Below the pieces are notes generated by a model. The model did not search any database. It was not told where the DNA came from and worked only from the letters and a program-made list of their open reading frames with translations. Made by a program: the position numbers and the translations under genes. Of a stretch of DNA of 64,000 nucleotides, positions 4,022 to 55,623 are shown piece after piece. Source of the DNA: Clostridia bacterium (GTDB taxonomy: Bacteria; Bacillota; Clostridia; Christensenellales; UBA1242); NCBI GenBank assembly GCA_017537515.1, contig JAFYKO010000122.1:3866-67865 (forward strand). The letters are read 5' to 3'. The first letter of the stretch is position 1, and the number at the start of each line of letters is the position of its first letter.

Positions 4022-4449
4022 ACGGGTTCCTTTGTTTCCTGGGCGACACCCTGGCAATGTCCCCACAGGTCGTTGAGTTCGTCTGCTGTGAAAATCCCGT
4101 TAAGGGAGCCGTTGGCAATAAGACGTTGGACGCTTTCGGCTTCGGCACGGCTGTCTTTTTTCAGCAAGTCGTGGATTTCACGGTGGGGGTCCACGAAACC
4201 TGCAAGGCTGTCAAGCACGGAGCGGGAGCGTTCCGCAAGCATAACCAGGGTCTTGGATTGTTCCAGGCGGTCGTAGTTAATGCGGTCAAGCGTGTGCTTG
4301 TGGACTTCATTGATTTCCTGGATTTCTTCTTCGTGGGCTGTCTGCAATTCGCCAATAAGGTTCAATACGTCAGTGACGCTAAACCACTTGTCACGCCCGA
4401 ACGTGTAAGTCTTGGGGAGTTTGTTTGCGATAGTGTTGAACTTACCCAT
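4018..4449 (-). CDS. hypothetical protein (143 aa)
   Basis: ORF track. Confidence 0.6.
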   Translation of the reverse strand: MGKFNTIANKLPKTYTFGRDKWFSVTDVLNLIGELQTAHEEEIQEINEVHKHTLDRINYDRLEQSKTLVMLAERSRSVLDSLAGFVDPHREIHDLLKKDSRAEAESVQRLIANGSLNGIFTADELNDLWGHCQGVAQETKEPV

Positions 4450-4916: not shown

Positions 4917-5234
4917 TTATGCGGGTTCGCTTCCCTGTTCGGGAGCCGTCTTCTTTTCGGGTAAATTCACGGACACTTGCAGGGTCACAACAGCCCCGTC
5001 CTTGCGTTTCCATTCAAAGGACACCTTCGTGGGCTTCTTGCAGTTCGGATTGTCCTTGGAATCCTTGTAATACTTGTCAGCAAGATTTTGGACGCAGTAA
5101 TCACGCACGGCTTCAATAGCCTGCTGCGTCACGTCAATCTTTGAAATCCATTCGGTGCCGTCCTTGTTAGTGGTGCCCGCATAGATTGTGTTAGTGAGCA
5201 TACTATGTGCCACCATAAATCTTTCGTTTTTCAT
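4917..5234 (-). CDS. hypothetical protein (105 aa)
   Basis: ORF 4917..5366 trimmed to ATG 5234 (MKNERFMVAHS) behind AACCGAGGTATCT. The longer form would overlap 5246..6349. Confidence 0.55.
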   Translation of the reverse strand: MKNERFMVAHSMLTNTIYAGTTNKDGTEWISKIDVTQQAIEAVRDYCVQNLADKYYKDSKDNPNCKKPTKVSFEWKRKDGAVVTLQVSVNLPEKKTAPEQGSEPA

Positions 5235-5245
5235 AGATACCTCGG

Positions 5246-6349
5246 TTAAACAATGTAGTCCACGGTGTTGGTTTCGTTCACGACACCCTTGCGTCTGTAA
5301 GAATAATGTGCCTTTACAAGAACCGTCTTGCCGTGCATACGGGCATAGTGGGCACGAACATACCAACTAGCCACGTTGAAGTTCTTCTGTTCACGAACGC
5401 ACTGCGAAGCACTCTCATACTTCTTCCAGGTTTCGTCCGTGATATGGATATAGCGGTATGCCTGGGAATGCTTCAACGGCTTCTTGCCTGCGAGCAGAAC
5501 AGGCTTGTCCGAAGCGTGGCGGGAGTAGTCGGGTTCCGAACACACTTCACAGGTTCGGAGCGATTCTGCAATCCACAGGTTCGTAAGCAGGGCTTCCACG
5601 TCAAACACGTTACCTGTGGTCCAATTATCATACTGCTCGTCGTATTCAAACGTGGCACCACGTAACTGCTTGTCACGGACAGACGGATGCAGGGGAATGT
5701 TGAAGTATTCGTTTTCCCCCGACTTCGGGTCACGTCGGTGCGTGATATGGCACATTTCCGTAGAAGCGACCAGGTAGATATAGTCGGTATGCCCGTTAAT
5801 CGGGAGTTCCAAAAGTTCCTCATAGAACTTCCCGTTTATGCAGTCCGAAACAAATTCAGTCTTCTGCTGTGCTGCCGTATTGTAAAGGTATTCACGATAC
5901 TCTTTGCGGAGTTCTTCGGCAGGGGCACCCAGGGAAAGCAGGAACTTCATAGCACGTTCGGACACCTTGCGAATCTTGCAGGACGGACCTGGGGTAATGT
6001 AGGCGTTGCACAGAAATTCGTTAATGCCCCCGCTGCTTATGAAACGCTGATGGTCCTTTACAGGCGGGTTCATATCCACCTTGACACCCAGGCGTTCTTC
6101 GTAGGCGTGGACGGAAAAGGGGAGCACCTTGAGTTTACGCAGGCGGTCCACCGCTTTCGTGTCACGCAGCGGTCGAAGCATATTGTCCTTCCACCAATCA
6201 CGCATACCCTGGGTATCGTCGCCAATGCGGTCCACGGCAGCAGCGTAGCAGGTTTCAAAGAATCTATCGGAAAGTGCGTTGCAGTTGAAGACAATCGGGT
6301 TTACGGGTTCTTCAACTTTCTTCTTCGGCTTGTTCTTATGCTTTGACAA
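5246..6349 (-). CDS. hypothetical protein (367 aa), TTG start
   Basis: Start codon is TTG (plus strand reads caa at 6347..6349), 7 nt after ACCGAGGA. First gene after promoter 6390..6447. Confidence 0.7.
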   Translation of the reverse strand: MSKHKNKPKKKVEEPVNPIVFNCNALSDRFFETCYAAAVDRIGDDTQGMRDWWKDNMLRPLRDTKAVDRLRKLKVLPFSVHAYEERLGVKVDMNPPVKDHQRFISSGGINEFLCNAYITPGPSCKIRKVSERAMKFLLSLGAPAEELRKEYREYLYNTAAQQKTEFVSDCINGKFYEELLELPINGHTDYIYLVASTEMCHITHRRDPKSGENEYFNIPLHPSVRDKQLRGATFEYDEQYDNWTTGNVFDVEALLTNLWIAESLRTCEVCSEPDYSRHASDKPVLLAGKKPLKHSQAYRYIHITDETWKKYESASQCVREQKNFNVASWYVRAHYARMHGKTVLVKAHYSYRRKGVVNETNTVDYIV

Positions 6350-6389
6350 GGCGTTATCCTCGGTAAAGGTTGTCGTGGTTTCTGTGCTA

Positions 6390-6447
6390 AATATAACAAA
6401 TTACCCGCCTATTGTCAATAGATATTTTAAATTTTTTGAATTTTTTC
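6390..6447 (-). promoter_or_regulatory. sigma70-type phage promoter (family member)
   Basis: -10 TATATT 6390..6395, -35 TTGACA 6413..6418, 17-nt spacer, long A/T UP tract. Confidence 0.75.
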
Positions 6448-6455
6448 AAGGTCCG

Positions 6456-6908
6456 CTATTTCTTATCGGCTTCTCCTACCATAACGACGGTTGTCAAGTC
6501 CCTGCCCTGCATACGCACGGCATTGTCTAGGAACTCTTTTGCCTTCTCAATGCTGTCAAACGACGCTTGGGTACAACAGGAATCGCAATCGTATTCCACG
6601 AACCTGTTCCAAAAGAACCACCTCTTGTATTCGGGGACGTAGTGAACGCTCAACTTGCCGTCAAGCAGAAGGTGTTCTTCCTTGACGATGCGGACCCGCA
6701 GCACCTTCTTTCGTTTGGTCCCTGGGTCAATGCCCCACATCTTGCAAAGGCTATCCTTGTCCTTGCGGAGTTTTCGGATTTCCCGCTGCAAAGCGTCCAC
6801 GACGTTCTTTACCAACGTAGCCGACGTAGTTAGACCGTGATACGTCATAAGGTCATACACGTTCATTCCATAAGAGTTCTGCGGTTCGTTAAGTTCGTCA
6901 CCAACCAT
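6456..6908 (-). CDS. hypothetical protein (150 aa)
   Basis: ORF track. Confidence 0.6.
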   Translation of the reverse strand: MVGDELNEPQNSYGMNVYDLMTYHGLTTSATLVKNVVDALQREIRKLRKDKDSLCKMWGIDPGTKRKKVLRVRIVKEEHLLLDGKLSVHYVPEYKRWFFWNRFVEYDCDSCCTQASFDSIEKAKEFLDNAVRMQGRDLTTVVMVGEADKK

Positions 6909-7197
6909 AATGCTTCCCCATTAGTTTAGAAAGTAAAATGCTTTGAATATGGGACACACGATTAGAATTTTCTTCGTTAAACGTGTAGTCGGTATCGTCG
7001 CCTGCGATTTGCAGGGTTTCAATAGCGTCCAACCGAACAACGGTGTTGCCGACGGTAATAGTGTCCTTGAACGGATTACCTGGCAGGTTAGTGGCATACT
7101 TGTTGGAATGGTATTCCTGCTTGATTTCGTTGAGAACGCCCGCAACGTCCAGGCGATAGCCCGTGTCGTCCAGGAACGTGACTATTCTAACAATCAT
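6898..7197 (-). CDS. hypothetical protein (99 aa)
   Basis: ORF track. Confidence 0.55.
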   Translation of the reverse strand: MIVRIVTFLDDTGYRLDVAGVLNEIKQEYHSNKYATNLPGNPFKDTITVGNTVVRLDAIETLQIAGDDTDYTFNEENSNRVSHIQSILLSKLMGKHYGW

Positions 7198-12602: not shown

Positions 12603-12655
12603 AATATAACAAATTACCTACACGTTGTCAATAGGTAATTTGAAAAAATTTTTAA
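12603..12655 (-). promoter_or_regulatory. sigma70-type phage promoter with perfect 10-bp inverted repeat around the -35
   Basis: -10 12603..12608, -35 12626..12631, 17-nt spacer. IR arms aaattaccta 12611..12620 and taggtaattt 12632..12641 with an 11-nt spacer. Confidence 0.8.
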
Positions 12656-19510: not shown

Positions 19511-19560
19511 AATATAACAAAATACCTGCTTATTGCAAACAGGTATTCTAAATAATAAAT
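19511..19560 (-). promoter_or_regulatory. phage promoter, weaker -35 (TTTGCA/TTGCAA), with inverted repeat
   Basis: -10 19511..19516. IR arms aatacctg 19521..19528 and caggtatt 19540..19547 with an 11-nt spacer. Confidence 0.6.
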
Positions 19561-19572
19561 GTTACATTTTAC

Positions 19573-20376
19573 TTACATACAGTAATAGACGGCAGTGACG
19601 TTACTGTTCTTGTCGTAGTGTTCTTCGGATGCCACGATAACTTTCTTGTCGTAGGTCAAGGAACTAACCACCGTGGAACCGATTTCCAACACCTGCGAAT
19701 AGGTGAACATCTGCATATCCGAAAACAACTTTGCGATTTCATTGCAGTTGTTCACGACGTTTTCCATAGCAGCCTGGTCTATGTTCGTGAACTGTCCGAA
19801 CGGCAGGACCACCTGGGCATCGTCGGGATATGAACCCGTTACAAGTTCTTCCCACCCGATGAACCCCGCAAGCGGGGCACGACCGTATAGCCTACGGAAC
19901 GGCACCTGGACCTGGACGGGCTTCTGCTTGTAGAGTTCGGAATAGTAAACGACCTTTTCCTTTTCAAAGTCCACAAAGCCAAACTTCGGGGACATATTCG
20001 CTAAAAGGATTGCCAACTGACCCTTGTTCAAGAACAAGTTCAAGAACGTGGTCGGGACCTTGGGACCGTTCTCAAGCCCAAGCCCCTTGAGTATTTCAGC
20101 AGCCTTGGCACTCTCAACCGACATAGGCGAGGTCTGCAACCACTTTTCGTGGGAGCCTAGAAGGGCTGAAATCTTGACCTGCGTCTTCTCACCGACGTGC
20201 ATATACACTTCGCTGCCCGCCACCTTGTATTCCTGCTTCACGTCCTCCACCGTAAGCGTGAACTTCGGTGCGTCGGAATAGGTCGCCATCGGGACGGCAA
20301 ATTCAGCGAACGTATAACCCGACAGTGCCCTGCGGATTATAACTTCTTCAATGTTTCCAAGGTCGCAGCCAATCAT
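19573..20376 (-). CDS. hypothetical protein, last gene of the tail operon (267 aa)
   Basis: ORF 19573..20421 trimmed to ATG 20376 (MIGCDLGN), which shares one base with the upstream TAA (TAATG). Confidence 0.55.
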   Translation of the reverse strand: MIGCDLGNIEEVIIRRALSGYTFAEFAVPMATYSDAPKFTLTVEDVKQEYKVAGSEVYMHVGEKTQVKISALLGSHEKWLQTSPMSVESAKAAEILKGLGLENGPKVPTTFLNLFLNKGQLAILLANMSPKFGFVDFEKEKVVYYSELYKQKPVQVQVPFRRLYGRAPLAGFIGWEELVTGSYPDDAQVVLPFGQFTNIDQAAMENVVNNCNEIAKLFSDMQMFTYSQVLEIGSTVVSSLTYDKKVIVASEEHYDKNSNVTAVYYCM

Positions 20377-29029: not shown

Positions 29030-29058
29030 TTGACAAATGTTGCTCAACAAATTATATT
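29030..29058 (+). promoter_or_regulatory. plus-strand sigma70-type promoter ending 7 nt before the ATG (leaderless transcript predicted)
   Basis: TTGACA 29030..29035, 17-nt spacer, TATATT 29053..29058, then taagcgt and ATG at 29066. Confidence 0.6.
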
Positions 29059-29065
29059 TAAGCGT

Positions 29066-30394
29066 ATGAAGACCGTAAAAGTGCCAATACTCAAACCACC
29101 CTGCTTGAATACAGACATTCAACAGTATAGCAGTATGGTCCGTATGGCATTTAAGCGGTATCAAGAAGGACTATCTAATAAAGAAATTAGGTCATACTTA
29201 AAAGAGCGTTACACAATAAATAGTTGGCTTATAGAGTCCGCAAGAGCAGACGCACAGAACTTATATAACACCCTAAAGACAAAACACGTCATTTGGGGCG
29301 GGTTAGATAATCTAAAAAAATACCTAAACGGGTCTATATCAAAAGAGCAGTATAAATGCCGTAGAAACTTTCCTGTCTGCTCGGTAGGGGAATCCCCTAA
29401 CAAGGGCAACAGGCTGTTTGAATTAACTCTAAAAAACAATCAAGTTACTTACAAACCCTCTCGCAGAATCCACACAGAAATACGGTTCTGCCCTGTAAAG
29501 AAGAAACTAGCACAGGAATTAGCAAAAGTTCAAGAACTTGCGGAACAAGGAAAAATGCCCGTAACTGTAAAGTTCACTAGCACCCACCTGTTCTTTACTT
29601 ACGACGAATCCTTGATTTACAACGAAGCCTATAAGGGATTGAAGCATAACCGTGTTCTAGGTATTGATATGAACCCCAACTACATAGGGGTATCTGTTAT
29701 TGAATTTACCAAAAAGGCAGGCTTCACCGTCTTGCACAAAGAAGTGTTTGATTTAACAACCCTTACTAAACCTAGCGGGGAATCTTCACAGCATAAGAAA
29801 TCCAAGTATTTTACGAATAAATTGAAACACGAAACTATTGCGATTGCTTACAAGATTAACAAACTTGTAGATTATTGGAAGTGTAACAAGTTGGCTATTG
29901 AAGACCTGTCTATTAAACCTACCAATAAACAGAAGGGTAAGACATTTAATCGGTTGTGCAACAACAAGTGGGAACGCCAACTTTTCGTGGACAAACTTAA
30001 AATGCTCGCAGGAATACACAAATATGAACTTGTAGAGGTTAATCCTGCATATTCTTCAATCGTGGGAAACTTCGCATACGGTGGTCCAAATACACCCGAT
30101 ATGGTTGCTGCAAGCATAGAAATCGCTAGACGAGCATACAAGAAGTTTGAAAAAGGATGGTTCTATCCGAGGTTTAACATTAACCACTTAAATGAGCAAT
30201 GGAAGCAAACATTAAGTGGTGTGAAATCTTGGAAGGACTTATTCTTGAAAGTCAAAGAATCTAAACTGAAATATAGGTTCCTGCTATCCGACTATATCGG
30301 GAATGCAGTCTTTAGAGGAATATATCCTAAACAAAAGTGGGAACGTTACACTTTTACTACAAACGGATGTATTCCACATTTCGCAACAATCTAA
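29066..30394 (+). CDS. TnpB/Cas12-type RuvC protein lacking the zinc-ribbon domain, paralog 1 (442 aa)
   Basis: GIDMNPNYIGVSV (RuvC-I Asp), KLAIEDLS (RuvC-II Glu), VNPAYSSIVGNFAYGGPNTPDMVAASIEIARRAY (RuvC-III Asp). No CxxC pairs. Start set at ATG 29066 (MKTVKV), matching the paralog N-terminus. The track's GTG 29021 lies in the promoter. Confidence 0.75.
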   Translation: MKTVKVPILKPPCLNTDIQQYSSMVRMAFKRYQEGLSNKEIRSYLKERYTINSWLIESARADAQNLYNTLKTKHVIWGGLDNLKKYLNGSISKEQYKCRRNFPVCSVGESPNKGNRLFELTLKNNQVTYKPSRRIHTEIRFCPVKKKLAQELAKVQELAEQGKMPVTVKFTSTHLFFTYDESLIYNEAYKGLKHNRVLGIDMNPNYIGVSVIEFTKKAGFTVLHKEVFDLTTLTKPSGESSQHKKSKYFTNKLKHETIAIAYKINKLVDYWKCNKLAIEDLSIKPTNKQKGKTFNRLCNNKWERQLFVDKLKMLAGIHKYELVEVNPAYSSIVGNFAYGGPNTPDMVAASIEIARRAYKKFEKGWFYPRFNINHLNEQWKQTLSGVKSWKDLFLKVKESKLKYRFLLSDYIGNAVFRGIYPKQKWERYTFTTNGCIPHFATI

Positions 30395-30419
30395 AAATAA
30401 GTCCTATACAAACTCTACA

Positions 30420-42120: not shown

Positions 42121-42300
42121 TAATAAGAATTACCTACAAGTATTGGCAGGGAAATTGCCCTCCCTTTGACAACAGAATATAATAAAAATTTTGTGCGATT
42201 TTGAAAAAGTTTTGAATAAAATGTCAAAAAATGTCAAATATAACAAATTACCTAGTTATAAGCTGTAGGTAATTTGTTATATAAATTAGGTAATCTATTA
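42121..42300 (-). promoter_or_regulatory. late-type regulatory region: four TAGGTAAT boxes and a perfect 17-bp inverted repeat carrying back-to-back -10 elements
   Basis: Boxes at 42128..42136, 42246..42254 (plus-strand sense AATTACCTA), 42266..42274 and 42287..42294 (TAGGTAAT). IR arms 42238..42254 / 42266..42282 with an 11-nt spacer. No TTGACA at -35. Confidence 0.55.
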
Positions 42301-46940: not shown

Positions 46941-47716
46941 TAGGGCTTCTCAACTTCAACGTAAGCGTCCTTGGGGACGATTACCTTTGTGCCGTCCTTT
47001 GCGACATATTCTTTCCATTCGGGCTGTCCGTTGAAATCCATAGAAGCGAGAGGAATGCCACGCTTGTTATACAGGTCAACGACAACGGAACGCAACGGGG
47101 CTGTCTTCCAATCGGCAAATTCGCTCACGAACTGCAACAGGAAACGGACGTTCCAACTATACGAAAACAGGTCGCCCTGTCGGAACGAAATAGGTTCCTC
47201 GGTCCCAAGGTCCTGGATAATCGTTGCGTTCAAGCCTGCCGTATCATAACCGCCCTCTGCTGTGCTTGTGCGGGTTTCATAGGCGAACTTCAAGTTAATC
47301 GGGACGTTATGGACGTTTTGATATTCCGCTGCGAACGCTTCTGCGAAATCTTCAATCATTTCCATTTTGTTAGACACCAGGACGCAACCCATACCAAATT
47401 CAGCCGAAACGGTCTTCTTGAACTTCAACCGCCCGTCGGGTGCCACTCCGTCTTGCAGGCGTATGGAACGACGGACAATGTTCTTCAAGGAATCCCTGGT
47501 CCAAAACAGGTAGGAATACGGGGCTTCACGGACATTCTCACGGTTGGTTTCGGACTTGCGTTCCATTTTCTTGTCGGCTAGGTCCTGGTCCAAGATACGC
47601 TGCGGACCCTCTGCGTCCGAACCATAGCAGACTTTCATAGTGCCGTCAAAACCCTGCCTGGTAAAGAAACCACGCATTTGAGCGAAATAGGCTTGTATGG
47701 CGATAGATTGCATCAT
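46940..47716 (-). CDS. hypothetical structural-module protein (258 aa)
   Basis: ORF track. Confidence 0.6.
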   Translation of the reverse strand: MMQSIAIQAYFAQMRGFFTRQGFDGTMKVCYGSDAEGPQRILDQDLADKKMERKSETNRENVREAPYSYLFWTRDSLKNIVRRSIRLQDGVAPDGRLKFKKTVSAEFGMGCVLVSNKMEMIEDFAEAFAAEYQNVHNVPINLKFAYETRTSTAEGGYDTAGLNATIIQDLGTEEPISFRQGDLFSYSWNVRFLLQFVSEFADWKTAPLRSVVVDLYNKRGIPLASMDFNGQPEWKEYVAKDGTKVIVPKDAYVEVEKP

Positions 47717-47729
47717 AGGCGATTAACCC

Positions 47730-52677: not shown

Positions 52678-53268
52678 TTACCAAACACGCCTGCCCGAAA
52701 AGAAATACGGCTTCGGAATGCCCGTGTAGGCTTCGTTCCGCAAGTCCGTAATGTTTTCGGGGTCGCAGTCACGGTTTATCATAATGAAATTCTTCCAATA
52801 CTCAACGCCCTTTTCGCCCTCGGCAAACATTTCGGGTCCGTCCAACTCAATCGGCTGCGACGGATATTTAGAGAACTTCAAGCGTTGACCTATCACAATC
52901 TTGCAGTGTGCCACGAACAGGTTTTCCAATTCTTCGGGAAGACCCGCCAGGTATGCGTTGTTCGCATTCAAGGCGATAGTGACGGTGATAGTCCCCGTCC
53001 CATTGAAAACCCTGGTCTGTGTTTCTACGAACTCCGACAACTTACCCGTCTTTCCGTCAACCGTCACGACCTGGTTCATAAGAATGTCGGGGACGTAATC
53101 CCCGCTTTCAATGGAATAGTTGTAGGTATTCGTGCGGGGAAACAGGCGATACTTGCGATACCAATGCAACGCCTTGTTATACATACGCTTGATAACAGCG
53201 TCCGTAATAAGTTCTTCGGTTTCAATGTTAAGTTCTTCGTCAAGAACGTCACGCAGACTAACAGCCAA
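52678..53268 (-). CDS. hypothetical structural-module protein (196 aa)
   Basis: ORF track. GGAGG SD lies 18 nt after the stop of 53287..54582. Confidence 0.6.
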   Translation of the reverse strand: MAVSLRDVLDEELNIETEELITDAVIKRMYNKALHWYRKYRLFPRTNTYNYSIESGDYVPDILMNQVVTVDGKTGKLSEFVETQTRVFNGTGTITVTIALNANNAYLAGLPEELENLFVAHCKIVIGQRLKFSKYPSQPIELDGPEMFAEGEKGVEYWKNFIMINRDCDPENITDLRNEAYTGIPKPYFFSGRRVW

Positions 53269-53286
53269 AATATACCTCCTTTAATC

Positions 53287-54582
53287 TTATACAAAAATGT
53301 AATAATTCCATTTTCGTTTATTATAGAAGTTACTAAAGACTGCATTTCCGAAATAGTCGGATAGCAGGAAACGATATTTGAGTTTCGCTTCTTTAACTTT
53401 TCGGAATAAGTCCTTCCAAGATTTCACTCCACCAAGCGTTTGCTTCCATCGCTCGTCTTGGGTTTCAACGTTAAACCTCGGATAGAACCATCCCTTTTCA
53501 AATTTCTTATATGCCCTACGTGCTATTTCAATAGACGCTGCTACCATATCGGGTGTATTTTCATTCCCGTATGCAAAATTACCCACGATAGACGAATAGG
53601 CGGGGTTGACTTCAACCAACTCATACCTGTGTATGCCCGCAAGCATTTTGAGTTTATTCACGAACAGTTGGCGTTCCCACTTATTATTAGCGAGCCTGTT
53701 AAAAGTTTTGCCCTTCTGTTTATCGGACGGCTTCATAGACAAGTCTTCAACCGCTAGTTTACTGCATTTCCAATAATCTACAAGTTTGTTAATCCTATGG
53801 GCAATAGCAAGCGTTTCGTGTTTCAACTTGTTCGTAAAATACTTTGATTTTATATGGGTGCTTGCTTTACCACTAGGTTTTGTGAGAGCCGTCAAGTCAA
53901 ACACCTCTTTGTGCAAGACCTTAAATTCATCATTTTTATCAAACTCAATAACTGACACCCCTATATAGTTGGGGTTCATATCTATGCCAAGAACCCTGTT
54001 CTGTTCCAAGCCCTTGTAGGCTTCATTGTAAATAAGAGTTTCGTCATAAGTAAGAAACAGGTATTTATCCGTAAACTTTACCGTAACAGGCATTTTCTTT
54101 TGGTCGGCTAACTCTTGAACCTTTGCTAACTCTTGGGCTAACTTCTTTTTTACAGGACAGAACTTTATTTCTTTACGAATGCCCCGACTAGGCTTATAGT
54201 TCACTACATTATTTTCAAAGTCAAATGAAAACAAACGATTCCCGTGATAGTTAGACTCACCTATACTGCACAGGGGCATCAACCTTTTTTGTCTAAACTG
54301 TTCTTTAGTTATCAATCCTTTAAGGTATTGTTTAAGATTAAGTTTACCACCGAACAGGACTTTCTTACCCTTATTAAGCGTAACTACCCCGTGGGCTTCC
54401 TTTGCTGCGGAAGACGCAAGCCAACTGCATACGCCAAACAAGTTTTGTAATCTCTTACGTGCTTCATTTTCGGAGCAACCCTCTTGAAGACGGTTGTAAG
54501 CCATACGGAACATACTGCTATACACACGTATAGCGTCCGACAGGTCGGGATTGTTCGTAATGGCTAGTTTCAATGTCTTCAA
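53287..54582 (-). CDS. TnpB/Cas12-type RuvC protein lacking the zinc-ribbon domain, paralog 2 (431 aa), TTG start
   Basis: Same three RuvC motifs as 29066..30394 (GIDMNPNYIGVSV, KLAVEDLS, NPAYSSIVGNFAYGNENTPDMVAASIEIARRAY). The TTG start lies 1 nt after the upstream TAG and has a GGAGGT SD inside that upstream gene. Confidence 0.75.
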   Translation of the reverse strand: MKTLKLAITNNPDLSDAIRVYSSMFRMAYNRLQEGCSENEARKRLQNLFGVCSWLASSAAKEAHGVVTLNKGKKVLFGGKLNLKQYLKGLITKEQFRQKRLMPLCSIGESNYHGNRLFSFDFENNVVNYKPSRGIRKEIKFCPVKKKLAQELAKVQELADQKKMPVTVKFTDKYLFLTYDETLIYNEAYKGLEQNRVLGIDMNPNYIGVSVIEFDKNDEFKVLHKEVFDLTALTKPSGKASTHIKSKYFTNKLKHETLAIAHRINKLVDYWKCSKLAVEDLSMKPSDKQKGKTFNRLANNKWERQLFVNKLKMLAGIHRYELVEVNPAYSSIVGNFAYGNENTPDMVAASIEIARRAYKKFEKGWFYPRFNVETQDERWKQTLGGVKSWKDLFRKVKEAKLKYRFLLSDYFGNAVFSNFYNKRKWNYYIFV

Positions 54583-54583
54583 A

Positions 54584-55393
54584 CTAGGACCTCCCCGCCC
54601 GCTGCACGGCTACGTCACGGATATGCTTCATAGCGTCGGCAAATTCAGCCAACAGCACCATCTGTGTAGAAGCCATAAATTCGGGACCCAACGTGTCAAA
54701 CACAATGTATTCGCTAACTTCGGCAGCATTCTTAACGCCATCAAGATACAAGCGAACCTTGTAATCAATTTCCATTTCGGGACAAAGGTTCACGACACCC
54801 GATGTCTTGGAAACATACAGAAGTATCGGGTCTTCGCTTATAGTCTTGTATTGCAAGTTCCCGCCATAGGCAGACGGGTCAAGTTGGTTATAGACAGTAA
54901 CCTGCTCCCAATGGGTAGTATCGCTAGGCGGGTATGCGTCTGCGTCTTCCACATTTTCAATGCAGCGGTAATACTCATACACGTCGTTGCTGCCCAAATA
55001 CCAAACAGTGTCGCCCACCCTGTAGTCGCCCTTTTTGGCAAACGGGGCGAACATATAGTAAAGGTCAGCCAACACAGCGATAACATTGTAGGACACTTCC
55101 TGCGTGGGCAGGAACGTAAATTCAATATCCAGGGCAGCAATCGGTTTACCCGTTTCTTCGCCCTGGCTGTCATACATACACGGAAGGTAACTTGTGCAAG
55201 GAAGGTCGGCACCCTCAATAGCGGAATCCGAAATGTCGGACCACTTGAGTGCAGCGACTTCATCCACGGAAGCCATCCCGCTAGAAACGTTGCAAAGCGT
55301 AGCACCACGGATAATGAGTTTGGCACCCGTAGCGACCGCACGGGCTAACGCAAGGCTACCCTCGTTAGTGAGCATATCATACTTTGTTGCCAT
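54584..55393 (-). CDS. tail-fibre-type protein with P2 gpH-like N-terminus (DUF3751-like) (269 aa)
   Basis: YDMLTNEGSLALARAVATGAKLIIRGATLCNVSSG resembles the FRTVITTAGAAKLAAATAPG...MAVGDGGG opening of P2 gpH-type fibres. Confidence 0.45.
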   Translation of the reverse strand: MATKYDMLTNEGSLALARAVATGAKLIIRGATLCNVSSGMASVDEVAALKWSDISDSAIEGADLPCTSYLPCMYDSQGEETGKPIAALDIEFTFLPTQEVSYNVIAVLADLYYMFAPFAKKGDYRVGDTVWYLGSNDVYEYYRCIENVEDADAYPPSDTTHWEQVTVYNQLDPSAYGGNLQYKTISEDPILLYVSKTSGVVNLCPEMEIDYKVRLYLDGVKNAAEVSEYIVFDTLGPEFMASTQMVLLAEFADAMKHIRDVAVQRAGRS

Positions 55394-55395
55394 AA

Positions 55396-55623
55396 CTAAA
55401 ATTCCTCCAGGGCTTTGTCAACCGTATTTTCGGCAGCGTCCTGCGTAAGACCGCCAACAGGGATAGAAAGAACCATCACGTCACTGTCGTAAACGTCAAT
55501 AGCCACTCCCTTGTCGTCAGCAGACACCGCAGCGGAATAACCCGCAGGCAAATTCCTGTTGGTATATTGCTTCAACGCCTGTGCGTCAAGTTCGCTCGCC
55601 TCGTTTTTCTTGAACTTCCTCAT
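55396..55623 (-). CDS. hypothetical protein (75 aa)
   Basis: ORF track. Confidence 0.5.
   Translation of the reverse strand: MRKFKKNEASELDAQALKQYTNRNLPAGYSAAVSADDKGVAIDVYDSDVMVLSIPVGGLTQDAAENTVDKALEEF

What the first reader, a model, noticed from the sequence alone, without database searches (positions are those of the whole stretch)
30183..30220. Covarying hairpin inside the 3' coding region of both zinc-ribbon-less paralogs: candidate guide-RNA scaffold element
In paralog 1 a perfect 9-bp stem (accacttaa 30183..30191 / ttaagtggt 30212..30220) encloses a 20-nt loop, AUGAGCAAUGGAAGCAAACA. At the homologous codons of paralog 2, mRNA-sense ccaag and cttgg (plus-strand 53457..53461 and 53432..53436) can pair around a 20-nt loop, ACGAGCGAUGGAAGCAAACG. 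The stem sequences differ, the loop is conserved, and the loop length is identical. The stem arms coincide with one of the few non-conserved peptide patches in the C-terminal half (NINHLNEQ vs NVETQDER, and LS vs LG). That is what is expected if RNA pairing rather than the protein constrains those bases. In canonical TnpB the omega/reRNA scaffold overlaps the 3' end of tnpB. Nucleotide similarity between the paralogs ends at about the paralog-2 stop (...ttacatttttgtATAA vs ...ttacacttttacTACAAACGG), which would be the scaffold/guide boundary. The paralog-2 stem is only 5 bp, so this evidence is suggestive and not strong.
Basis: seen in the sequence. Interest (0 to 1): 0.6.

Follow-up and report, generated by a model that had tools for sequence, protein, structure and literature searches.

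The report
Guide-RNA scaffold hairpin in phage TnpB genes
The hairpin is real and is the first stem of a roughly 200-base structured RNA embedded in the end of two phage genes for a TnpB-like (CRISPR-Cas12-ancestor) nuclease, most likely the RNA that guides that nuclease, so it is a new example of a known kind of selfish genetic element.

Summary
The hairpin is exactly where stated: 9 bp in paralog 1 and 5 bp plus one extra pair in paralog 2. Alone it is unremarkable, because the window holds 29 inverted repeats of at least 9 bp. In 58-78 homologues it covaries strongly. Its two central pairs are the top two of 831,405 column pairs, all four Watson-Crick types occur, and changes are coordinated many times on the tree.

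It is the 5'-most of at least five covarying helices. These span the last ~65 codons and continue 20-23 nt past the ancestral stop, to a sharp conserved end (..TATTTTA/G), after which copies diverge. Synonymous-site variation falls to about half over exactly this stretch. G:U outnumbers A:C 132 to 38, which points to the sense strand. Distant relatives keep a stem around a UGGAAG loop although that motif lies in another reading frame.

The protein has a Cas12f/TnpB fold, an invariant D-E-D triad and no zinc finger. Some relatives carry an IS607-type serine recombinase. Related phages have empty sites, one with a 20/20 match to the paralog-2 flank.

The best reading is an undescribed omega-RNA scaffold (no Rfam match) of a zinc-finger-less, phage-borne TnpB lineage. 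The guide function itself is inferred and was not shown.

The parts
29030..29058 (+). Promoter-like left end of paralog 1: TTGACA, 17 nt, TATATT, ending 7 nt before the ATG. The spacer is a palindrome whose sequence differs between copies.
   Evidence: The scan gives 11 of 12 consensus matches. The same layout is conserved upstream of about 12 close homologues.
29066..30394 (+). Paralog 1, a TnpB-like gene of 442 aa. The ancestral stop is lost, so the ORF reads 11 codons into the RNA tail.
   Evidence: 71% aa identity to paralog 2. Homologues end at about codon 431. No CxxC motif is present (translation).
30183..30220 (+). H1 of paralog 1, the reported hairpin: a 9-bp stem, a bulged A30192 and a U30193:A30211 pair. 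The loop carries the conserved AAUGGAAGCAAAC.
30257..30280 (+). H2 of paralog 1: GAATCTA 30257-30263 pairs with TAGGTTC 30274-30280, with a 10-nt loop.
   Evidence: 96.8% of cells are paired and 5 of 7 pairs show changes on both sides. RNAalifold predicts it.
30281..30308 (+). H3 (30281-30284 with 30305-30308) enclosing H4 (30287-30291 with 30297-30301) of paralog 1.
   Evidence: H3 is 98% paired, with CUGC/GCAG changing to CAGC/GCUG in some copies. H4 is 84% paired, with 4 of 5 pairs changed on both sides.
30317..30375 (+). H6 of paralog 1: GGAATATATC 30317-30326 pairs with GATGTATTCC 30366-30375. It encloses hairpin H7 (AAAAGTG/CACTTTT).
   Evidence: The covariance-model alignment shows all pairs formed. 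The single-sequence fold also predicts it. In the family it is 80% paired, with 6 of 9 pairs changed on both sides. H7 is shown.
30376..30383 (+). Right-end tail of paralog 1 (ACATTTCG, the counterpart of the family's GTATTTTA). This is the end of the conserved element.
30384..30403 (+). Flank of paralog 1, the putative guide (CAACAATCTAAAAATAAGTC).
   Evidence: This assignment is an inference from the position after the conserved end. Its first 17 nt match, with one mismatch, a site in the same intergenic region of related phages L130 and L131.
53287..54582 (-). Paralog 2, a TnpB-like gene of 431 aa with a TTG start placed 1 nt after the stop of the upstream gene.
53432..53461 (-). H1 of paralog 2: CCAAG 53461-53457 pairs with CTTGG 53436-53432, plus the pair C53455:G53437.
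53368..53391 (-). H2 of paralog 2: GAAGCGA 53391-53385 pairs with TCGTTTC 53374-53368.
53340..53367 (-). H3 (53367-53364 with 53343-53340) enclosing H4 (53361-53357 with 53351-53347) of paralog 2.
53275..53330 (-). H6 of paralog 2: ACTTCTATA 53330-53322 pairs with TAAAGGAGG 53283-53275, with 7 of 9 pairs formed. The 3' arm contains the Shine-Dalgarno-like AGGAGG.
   Evidence: alignment and fold.
53266..53274 (-). Right-end tail of paralog 2 (TATATTTTG). Its TTG (53268-53266) is the start codon of the downstream gene.
53246..53265 (-). Flank of paralog 2, the putative guide (GCTGTTAGTCTGCGTGACGT, codons 2-8 of the downstream gene).
   Evidence: It matches 20 of 20 the element-free site of related phage L128, where TAAATG precedes it.

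Best explanation
The hairpin is the 5'-most stem-loop (H1) of a sense-strand structured RNA of about 200-215 nt. This RNA overlaps the last ~65 codons of each TnpB-like gene and runs 20-23 nt past the ancestral stop to a sharply defined element end. It most likely is the omega-RNA (reRNA) of this lineage. Under that reading, the mRNA 3' part is bound and probably processed by the nuclease it encodes. The helices H1-H7 form the scaffold and the conserved H1 loop (AAUGGAAG) is a recognition element. The variable ~16-20 nt just after the end (from 30384 in paralog 1 and from 53265 downward in paralog 2) serve as the guide. The complex would then cut element-free copies of the same site in sister or co-infecting phage genomes, and recombinational repair would copy the element in.

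Shown here: the structure, its covariation, its extent, its strand, the fold and catalytic triad of the protein, and presence/absence polymorphism at identical sites.

Inferred only: RNA processing, protein binding, guide use, cleavage and homing.
For: 1. Covariation. In a codon alignment of 78 unique homologues, the H1 pairs 1124:1149 and 1123:1150 rank first and second of 831,405 column pairs. On the MAFFT alignment A5 (58 sequences), 88.5% of cells are paired against 31-47% when the partners are slid. The covariation score is 0.432 against at most 0.095, and no shuffle out of 500 reaches it. RNAalifold independently predicts H1-H4.

2. Repeated coordinated change. On a tree built from residues 1-360 only, pair 20:45 changes state at least 15 times and is always canonical. 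Pair 22:43 changes 8 times, matched by 8 changes in each of its two columns.

3. The constraint is on the RNA, not the protein. The Asp codon's third base covaries with the Thr codon's third base. Asp/Asn covaries with the CUN/UUR choice for Leu. The synonymous-site entropy ratio is 0.9-1.0 over codons 40-360 and falls to 0.5-0.65 over codons 366-431.

4. Strand. G:U occurs 132 times and A:C 38 times in the helices.

5. Boundary. Conservation stops abruptly after ..GTATTTTA, and the flanks are unrelated between copies.

6. Depth of conservation. A covariance model finds the RNA at the 3' end of the gene in 28 of 42 more distant loci, including Campylobacter phage CP220 ISCaje4. These distant clades keep a stem around a UGGAAG loop even where that motif is in a different reading frame.

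7. Protein. The best PDB fold matches are Cas12f, Cas12k, Cas12g and the ISDra2 and ISFba1 TnpBs, with E down to 1e-8. D201, E279 and D345 are invariant.

8. Mobility. There are several copies per phage genome. Element-free sites exist in relatives. The paralog-2 flank matches the empty site of L128 at 20 of 20 positions. An IS607-type recombinase lies upstream in L101 and CP220.
Against: There are no expression or processing data. No Rfam family matches, including the known TnpB/IscB guide RNAs. No target-adjacent motif could be established. The five empty sites only share ATG before the match, and the element's own end reads TTTG or TTTTA. The protein lacks the zinc finger of canonical TnpB and scores below the curated cut-offs of the TnpB sequence models, so its activity is unproven. 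In paralog 2 the putative guide is the start of the downstream ORF and the 3' arm of H6 holds that gene's Shine-Dalgarno sequence, so part of the structure could serve translational control instead. H1 of paralog 2 is short (5+1 bp), and the whole-scaffold fold z-score for paralog 2 is only -2.2.
Confidence: 0.72

Rival explanations
1. The helices are a cis-acting mRNA structure. It would stabilise the 3' end of the mRNA or couple and regulate translation of the displaced downstream gene, and it would carry no guide.
For: In paralog-2-type copies the tail supplies AGGAG plus a TTG start for the downstream gene. The 3' arm of H6 pairs with that Shine-Dalgarno sequence.
Against: The same RNA is conserved in copies whose tail carries no Shine-Dalgarno sequence and which are followed by unrelated or opposite-strand sequence, paralog 1 among them. 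H1 through H4 lie 90-200 nt from any downstream start. The H1 loop is conserved across clades and reading frames, which fits a trans-acting partner better. The protein is of a family whose members are known to use such RNAs.
Confidence: 0.15
2. The hairpins act as single-stranded DNA structures recognised by a transposase at the right end, as in IS200/IS605 elements, and do not act as RNA.
For: IS200/IS605 ends carry subterminal hairpins. Covariation alone cannot tell RNA from top-strand DNA.
Against: No Y1/HUH transposase lies next to any copy examined. The recombinase found in relatives is the IS607 serine type, which acts on double-stranded DNA. Seven helices over about 200 nt, with frequent G:U (G:T) pairs, are far more than a transposase end hairpin.
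Confidence: 0.05
3. The hairpin is a chance inverted repeat or a by-product of protein-level co-evolution.
For: The window holds 29 comparable inverted repeats. The stem of paralog 2 is only 5 bp.
Against: Synonymous positions covary, all four Watson-Crick pair types occur, the shuffle and slide controls fail to reach the observed values, and the pairs rank at the top among 831,405.
Confidence: 0.01

Closest known systems
TnpB with its omega-RNA/reRNA (OMEGA systems of IS200/IS605 and IS607; ISDra2 is the paradigm)
   Same: It is a compact RuvC nuclease with a Cas12f/TnpB fold and a D-E-D triad. A structured non-coding RNA overlaps the 3' end of its own ORF and ends at the element's right end, followed by a copy-specific flank. 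The elements are multi-copy and show presence/absence polymorphism.
   Different: There is no C4 zinc finger between RuvC-II and RuvC-III. The RNA matches no Rfam family. The window copies have no transposase gene. A target-adjacent motif is not defined. The protein scores below the curated cut-offs of the TnpB sequence models.
[quoted passage not shown] 2024, PMC11061315; reviewed in PMC13565253)
   Same: Relatives of these genes (L101, CP220 ISCaje4) sit directly downstream of an IS607-type serine recombinase gene.
   Different: RAGATH-18 is not detected. The AGGAG/GAGGG motif reported for most IS607 TnpBs is not adjacent to the junctions seen here. The window copies lack the recombinase.
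The zinc-finger-less, virus-enriched TnpB clade RIIIr-4 in the survey of Altae-Tran et al. 2023 (PMC10691335)
   Same: It has no zinc finger and is enriched in viruses.
   Different: In RIIIr-4 the RuvC-III aspartate is described as replaced by histidine, whereas D345 is invariant here.
Free-standing homing endonuclease genes of T-even phages (Seg and Mob types)
   Same: These are selfish nuclease genes sitting between conserved phage genes, present or absent at the same site in related phages.
   Different: Target recognition here would be RNA-guided and not protein-based. The nuclease fold is unrelated.

Membership tests
TnpB / omega-RNA (OMEGA) system | Protein with a TnpB/Cas12-type fold (WED, REC and a split RuvC domain) | tested here: met
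   The AlphaFold2 model has mean pLDDT 71, with residues 1-230 mostly at 78-93. The top Foldseek PDB hits are Cas12f, Cas12k, Cas12g and the ISDra2 and ISFba1 TnpBs, with E 1e-8 to 7e-5 over about 430 aligned columns.
TnpB / omega-RNA (OMEGA) system | Conserved RuvC catalytic triad D..E..D | tested here: met
   D201, E279 and D345 are invariant in alignments spanning 32-100% identity and are present in both paralogs.
TnpB / omega-RNA (OMEGA) system | C4 zinc finger between RuvC-II and RuvC-III (typical, though lost in some clades) | tested here: not met
   Neither paralog has a CxxC motif. Only about 15 residues separate NPAYSS from D345 (translations).
TnpB / omega-RNA (OMEGA) system | Structured RNA overlapping the 3' end of the ORF and ending at the element's right end | tested here: met
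   Helices H1-H4 and H6 covary. Synonymous-site variation is suppressed over codons 366-431. Conservation ends abruptly 20-23 nt past the stop.
TnpB / omega-RNA (OMEGA) system | The flank after the right end acts as guide and matches the element-free site next to a target-adjacent motif | tested here: inconclusive
   The paralog-2 flank matches the empty site of L128 at 20 of 20 positions. Five empty sites all have ATG immediately 5' of the match, but this may simply reflect insertion at start codons. No motif could be defined.
TnpB / omega-RNA (OMEGA) system | RNA-guided DNA cleavage | not testable with these tools
   This needs biochemistry or in vivo assays.
TnpB / omega-RNA (OMEGA) system | Match to curated TnpB sequence models | tested here: not met
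   The local Pfam-A copy gives no TnpB hit. TIGR01766 scores 14-15 bits against a cut-off of 32. PHROG 12300 'transposase' gives E 0.006. Homologues carry a precomputed PF27229.1, which is not in the local library.
IS607 family | Serine recombinase TnpA encoded upstream of tnpB | tested here: not met
   It is absent next to both window copies. It is present in relatives: L101, with NF033518 at E 6e-29 on an ORF cut short by an in-frame stop, and as a truncated gene in CP220.
IS607 family | RAGATH-18-type guide RNA | tested here: not met
   No Rfam match was found at gathering score or at E up to 10.
IS200/IS605 family | Y1 (HUH) transposase TnpA | not tested
   None was seen in the ORFs next to the window copies. 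No systematic search was made.

The most novel reading that the evidence does not exclude
These are RNA-guided homing elements of jumbo phages that insert exactly at the start codon of a phage gene. The native Shine-Dalgarno sequence then drives the nuclease gene, and the element's own tail has evolved an AGGAG plus TTG to restart the displaced gene. The first ~20 nt of that gene act as the guide against element-free competitor phages. The A-to-T difference in the start codon (ATG versus TTG) would be the self/non-self mark. In this reading the H1 loop (UGGAAG), conserved across reading frames, is the main protein-recognition element of a zinc-finger-less TnpB.
Probability: 0.3. Interest if true: 0.7.

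Novelty: new member of a known kind. Interest (0 to 1): 0.55.

Why it matters
It gives a covariation-supported secondary structure and exact boundaries for the likely guide RNA of a large, uncharacterised, zinc-finger-less TnpB lineage. The family has over 1,500 proteins, several copies per ~215-kb phage genome, and relatives in Lak megaphages and Campylobacter phages. That makes the lineage directly testable as a compact RNA-guided nuclease. It also raises the idea that TnpB elements behave in phages like homing endonuclease genes. The locus is a clean case of a coding sequence whose amino acids are visibly dictated by an overlapping RNA structure.

Tried and rejected
- DNA search of the phage collection found nothing.
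- Pfam, PHROGs, NCBIfam and the PDB sequence search gave only sub-threshold hits or none.
- Rfam gave nothing beyond a chance SL1 hit at E=3.
- My first covariation filter (at least 3 pair types, at least 85% canonical) was too lax and produced hundreds of spurious 3-bp helices. I replaced it with a ranked covariance score.
- A strict regular expression for the tail caught only 9 sequences, so I loosened it.
- A candidate helix H5 (AGCAA with UUUGC at the stop) is only 78% paired and competes with H6. The better local alternative is hairpin H7.
- I looked for orphan copies of the RNA in the window. Only the two gene-linked copies were found, plus a noise hit at 19530-19585 with E=0.6. There is no third protein copy.
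- I tried to define the left boundary and a target-adjacent motif for paralog 1 from element-free relatives. The intergenic region is too rearranged to give a clean junction.
- The sequence just 5' of the promoter-type left ends shows no shared motif.
- The paralog-1 flank has no match with 3 or fewer mismatches over 20 nt outside itself.

Full report
**Observation.**
The sequence is as described. In paralog 1 (gene 29066-30394, plus strand), accacttaa 30183-30191 pairs perfectly with ttaagtggt 30212-30220 around 20 nt. In paralog 2 (gene 54582-53287, minus strand), ccaag 53461-53457 pairs with cttgg 53436-53432 around 20 nt. The proteins are 71% identical with no gaps.

As a single-sequence feature the hairpin is ordinary. 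The window has 29 inverted repeats of at least 9 bp within 40 nt. The local fold z-scores are -2.9 and -2.2.

**Family.**
The protein family is large. There are 1,579 database proteins at E<1e-5, many on 200-225-kb contigs, and up to four copies on one IMG/VR contig. More distant relatives occur in Lak megaphages and in Campylobacter phage CP220, where the gene is annotated as ISCaje4 TnpB next to a truncated resolvase-like gene. I collected 126 loci from viral and metagenome contigs. From them I built a codon alignment of 78 unique homologues with at least 43% identity to paralog 2.

**Covariation of the hairpin.**
The stem differs between copies while staying complementary: CCAAG/CTTGG, GCTAG/CTAGC, ACAG/CTGT, TCCAA/TTGGA, CCGAG/CTCGG, and ACCACTTAA/TTAAGTGGT in paralog 1 and again in a 45%-identical clade.

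- Amino-acid changes on the two arms are those required by pairing.
- Purely synonymous positions covary as well. The third base of the Asp/Asn codon pairs with the third base of the Thr codon across a bulged A. Asp versus Asn tracks CUN versus UUR for Leu.
- Among all 831,405 column pairs of the gene, the two central H1 pairs rank first and second.
- On an NJ tree built only from residues 1-360, pair 20:45 changes state at least 15 times and is canonical in every sequence. Pair 22:43 changes 8 times, matched by 8 changes in each of its two columns. Recombination between copies could inflate these counts, but not the perfect complementarity.

**The hairpin is one part of a larger RNA.**
The same scan and RNAalifold revealed more helices:

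- H2 is a 7-bp stem with a 10-nt loop.
- H3 encloses H4.
- H6 is a long-range helix joining the codons around ..CTATA.. to a TATAG motif downstream of the stop codon.
- H7 is a hairpin inside H6.

On the MAFFT alignment A5 (58 sequences, not fitted to any structure), 88.5% of cells are paired against 31-47% when partners are slid by 1-3 columns. The covariation score is 0.432 against at most 0.095, and no shuffle out of 500 reaches it. H1, H2, H4 and H6 each have four to six pairs with changes on both sides.

The synonymous-site entropy ratio is 0.9-1.0 over most of the gene. It falls to 0.5-0.65 from codon 366 to the end, which is exactly the stretch covered by the helices. G:U pairs outnumber A:C by 132 to 38, so the structure belongs to the sense strand. 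The whole scaffold of paralog 1 folds with z = -4.3, and that of paralog 2 with z = -2.2.

**Boundary.**
Conservation does not stop at the stop codon. Most copies continue with about 23 nt (..TATAG TTTTTG TATTTTA), and after that the sequences of different copies are unrelated. Aligned to the covariance model, the ends are at 53266 (TATATTTTG) for paralog 2 and 30383 (ACATTTCG) for paralog 1.

Paralog 1 has lost its stop codon and reads through the tail. Its H6 nevertheless forms 10 pairs through compensating changes.

**Depth.**
A covariance model built from A5 finds only the two gene-linked copies in the window, at 216 and 198 bits, with no orphan copies. It finds the RNA at the gene's 3' end in 28 of 42 more distant loci, CP220 included.

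In the distant clades a stem of unrelated sequence (up to 14-16 bp in L026 and L038) still encloses a UGGAAG loop. There the motif is read as uUG-GAA-Gaa, whereas in the window it is UGG-AAG. A nucleotide motif kept across a frame change is hard to explain by protein constraint.

**Protein.**
AlphaFold2 gives a confident N-terminal and RuvC core and a low-confidence C-terminus (residues 361-431, pLDDT below 50), which is the part overlapped by the RNA. The best PDB fold matches are Cas12f, Cas12k, Cas12g and the ISDra2 and ISFba1 TnpBs. D201, E279 and D345 are invariant. No zinc finger is present. Curated sequence models match only below threshold. Homologues carry a precomputed Pfam family, PF27229.1, that is not in the local library.

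**Mobility.**
L101 and CP220 have an IS607-type serine recombinase gene directly upstream. The window copies have none.

Paralog 1 has its own promoter-like left end (TTGACA, 17 nt, TATATT), shared by about a dozen close homologues. Paralog 2 starts 1 nt after the upstream gene's stop codon.

Related phages provide element-free sites:

| Empty site | Filled counterpart | Evidence |
|---|---|---|
| L128 | paralog 2 | ..GGTCCTAAATG\|GCTGTTAGTCTGCGTGACGT, a 20/20 match to the paralog-2 flank |
| window ~55393 | the L058 copy | |
| window ~47716 | the L051 copy | |
| L005/L053 | the second L002 copy | |

In all of these the element sits exactly at a start codon. The empty site reads ATG and the filled site reads ..AGGAG-N-TATAYTTTG. 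The element's tail therefore supplies a Shine-Dalgarno sequence and a TTG start to the displaced gene.

**Interpretation.**
The combination seen here is the signature of a TnpB omega-RNA: a TnpB/Cas12f-fold nuclease, a multi-helix sense RNA overlapping its 3' end, a sharp right end followed by copy-specific sequence, several copies per genome, and filled/empty polymorphism. H1 is its first stem-loop.

I could not show processing, binding, guide use or cleavage, and no target-adjacent motif could be defined. A role of the 3' part (H6) in translation of the downstream gene is not excluded and may coexist with the guide role.

**Relation to what is known.**
Omega-RNAs overlapping tnpB are well established (PMC8612924, PMC10278001). 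IS607 TnpBs use RAGATH-18-derived RNAs (PMC11061315), which are not detected here. A survey noted a zinc-finger-less, virus-enriched TnpB clade, RIIIr-4, but described it as having His in place of the RuvC-III Asp (PMC10691335). Here the Asp is kept, so membership is open.

I therefore file this as a new member of a known kind. It is an undescribed guide-RNA family for a phage-borne, zinc-finger-less TnpB lineage, with an unusual habit of inserting at start codons.

Noticed in passing
window 53266-53290 (minus strand), with L128:2480-2520: The tail of paralog 2 (AAAGGAGGTATATTTTG) gives the downstream gene (52678-53268) a Shine-Dalgarno sequence and a TTG start. In the element-free relative L128 the same gene starts with ATG directly after the upstream stop. 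Paralog 2 itself appears to use the native GGGAGG that formerly served that gene.
   Followed up: partly
window ~55391-55400 and ~47714-47720 (minus-strand gene starts): Both positions are element-free versions of sites that carry a family member in other phages (L058 and L051/L050). The ATG there is replaced by the element's TTG in the filled versions.
   Followed up: partly
window 29036-29052, and the same position in L003-L013, L049, L050, L060 and L063: The 17-nt spacer between the -35 and -10 hexamers of the element's promoter is an inverted repeat. Its sequence differs between copies while staying palindromic (for example ATTATGctacCATAAT, ACTATTATATAATAGT). This is odd for a protein operator. 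It could be a hairpin or a copy-specific regulatory site.
   Followed up: no
L066, L071, L015, L079, L068, L072, L078, L076, L070: about 170 nt upstream of the ATG: The ~60%-identity clade has a different, long conserved left end. It has three hairpins, at least one of which covaries (TCCTATTTGG..CTGAATAGGA against TCCTATCTAG..CTGGATAGGA), followed by a T-run just before the ATG. This looks like a structured leader or attenuator.
   Followed up: no
L020, L021, L102, L110, L117 and L101 (gene 3' regions): An in-frame TAG sits where all other homologues have a conserved Gln codon (D-Y-I-TAG-N-A-V-F against D-Y-V-Q-N-A-V-F). This suggests that these phages read TAG as an amino acid. The IS607 recombinase ORF of L101 is also interrupted.
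   Followed up: partly
window 30384-30401, with L130 and L131 (reverse complement, ~4190-4210): The first 18 nt after the end of paralog 1 (CAACAATCTAAAAATAAG) match CAACATTCTAAAAATAAT in the same intergenic region of element-free relatives at 16 of 18 positions. The match lies about 150 nt from the equivalent position, next to the start of the 387-aa gene. It may be a carried-over old flank or a nearby homing target. The region is too rearranged to decide.
   Followed up: partly
window 42238-42282 and 12610-12642; also L130, L131 and L134 intergenic regions: A perfect 17-bp inverted repeat, ATATAACAAATTACCTA/TAGGTAATTTGTTATAT, and a shorter copy occur in the window. The same ATAACAAATTACCTA motif is repeated in tandem in the intergenic region of related phages. 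It is probably a phage regulatory site.
   Followed up: no
paralog 2 residues 361-431 (window 53290-53502): AlphaFold2 confidence drops below 50 for exactly the C-terminal ~70 residues whose codons carry the RNA helices. This part of the protein may be shaped more by the RNA than by folding needs.
   Followed up: partly
codons 1-35 of the family (window 29066-29170 and 54478-54582): There is a mild drop in synonymous-site variation (ratio 0.75-0.8 against 0.9-1.0 elsewhere) at the 5' end of the gene.
   Followed up: no
L002:3001-4296 and 5181-6473; L007:3001-4296 and 5834-7123: Two family copies lie within about 0.9-1.5 kb of each other on the same strand in some phages.
   Followed up: no
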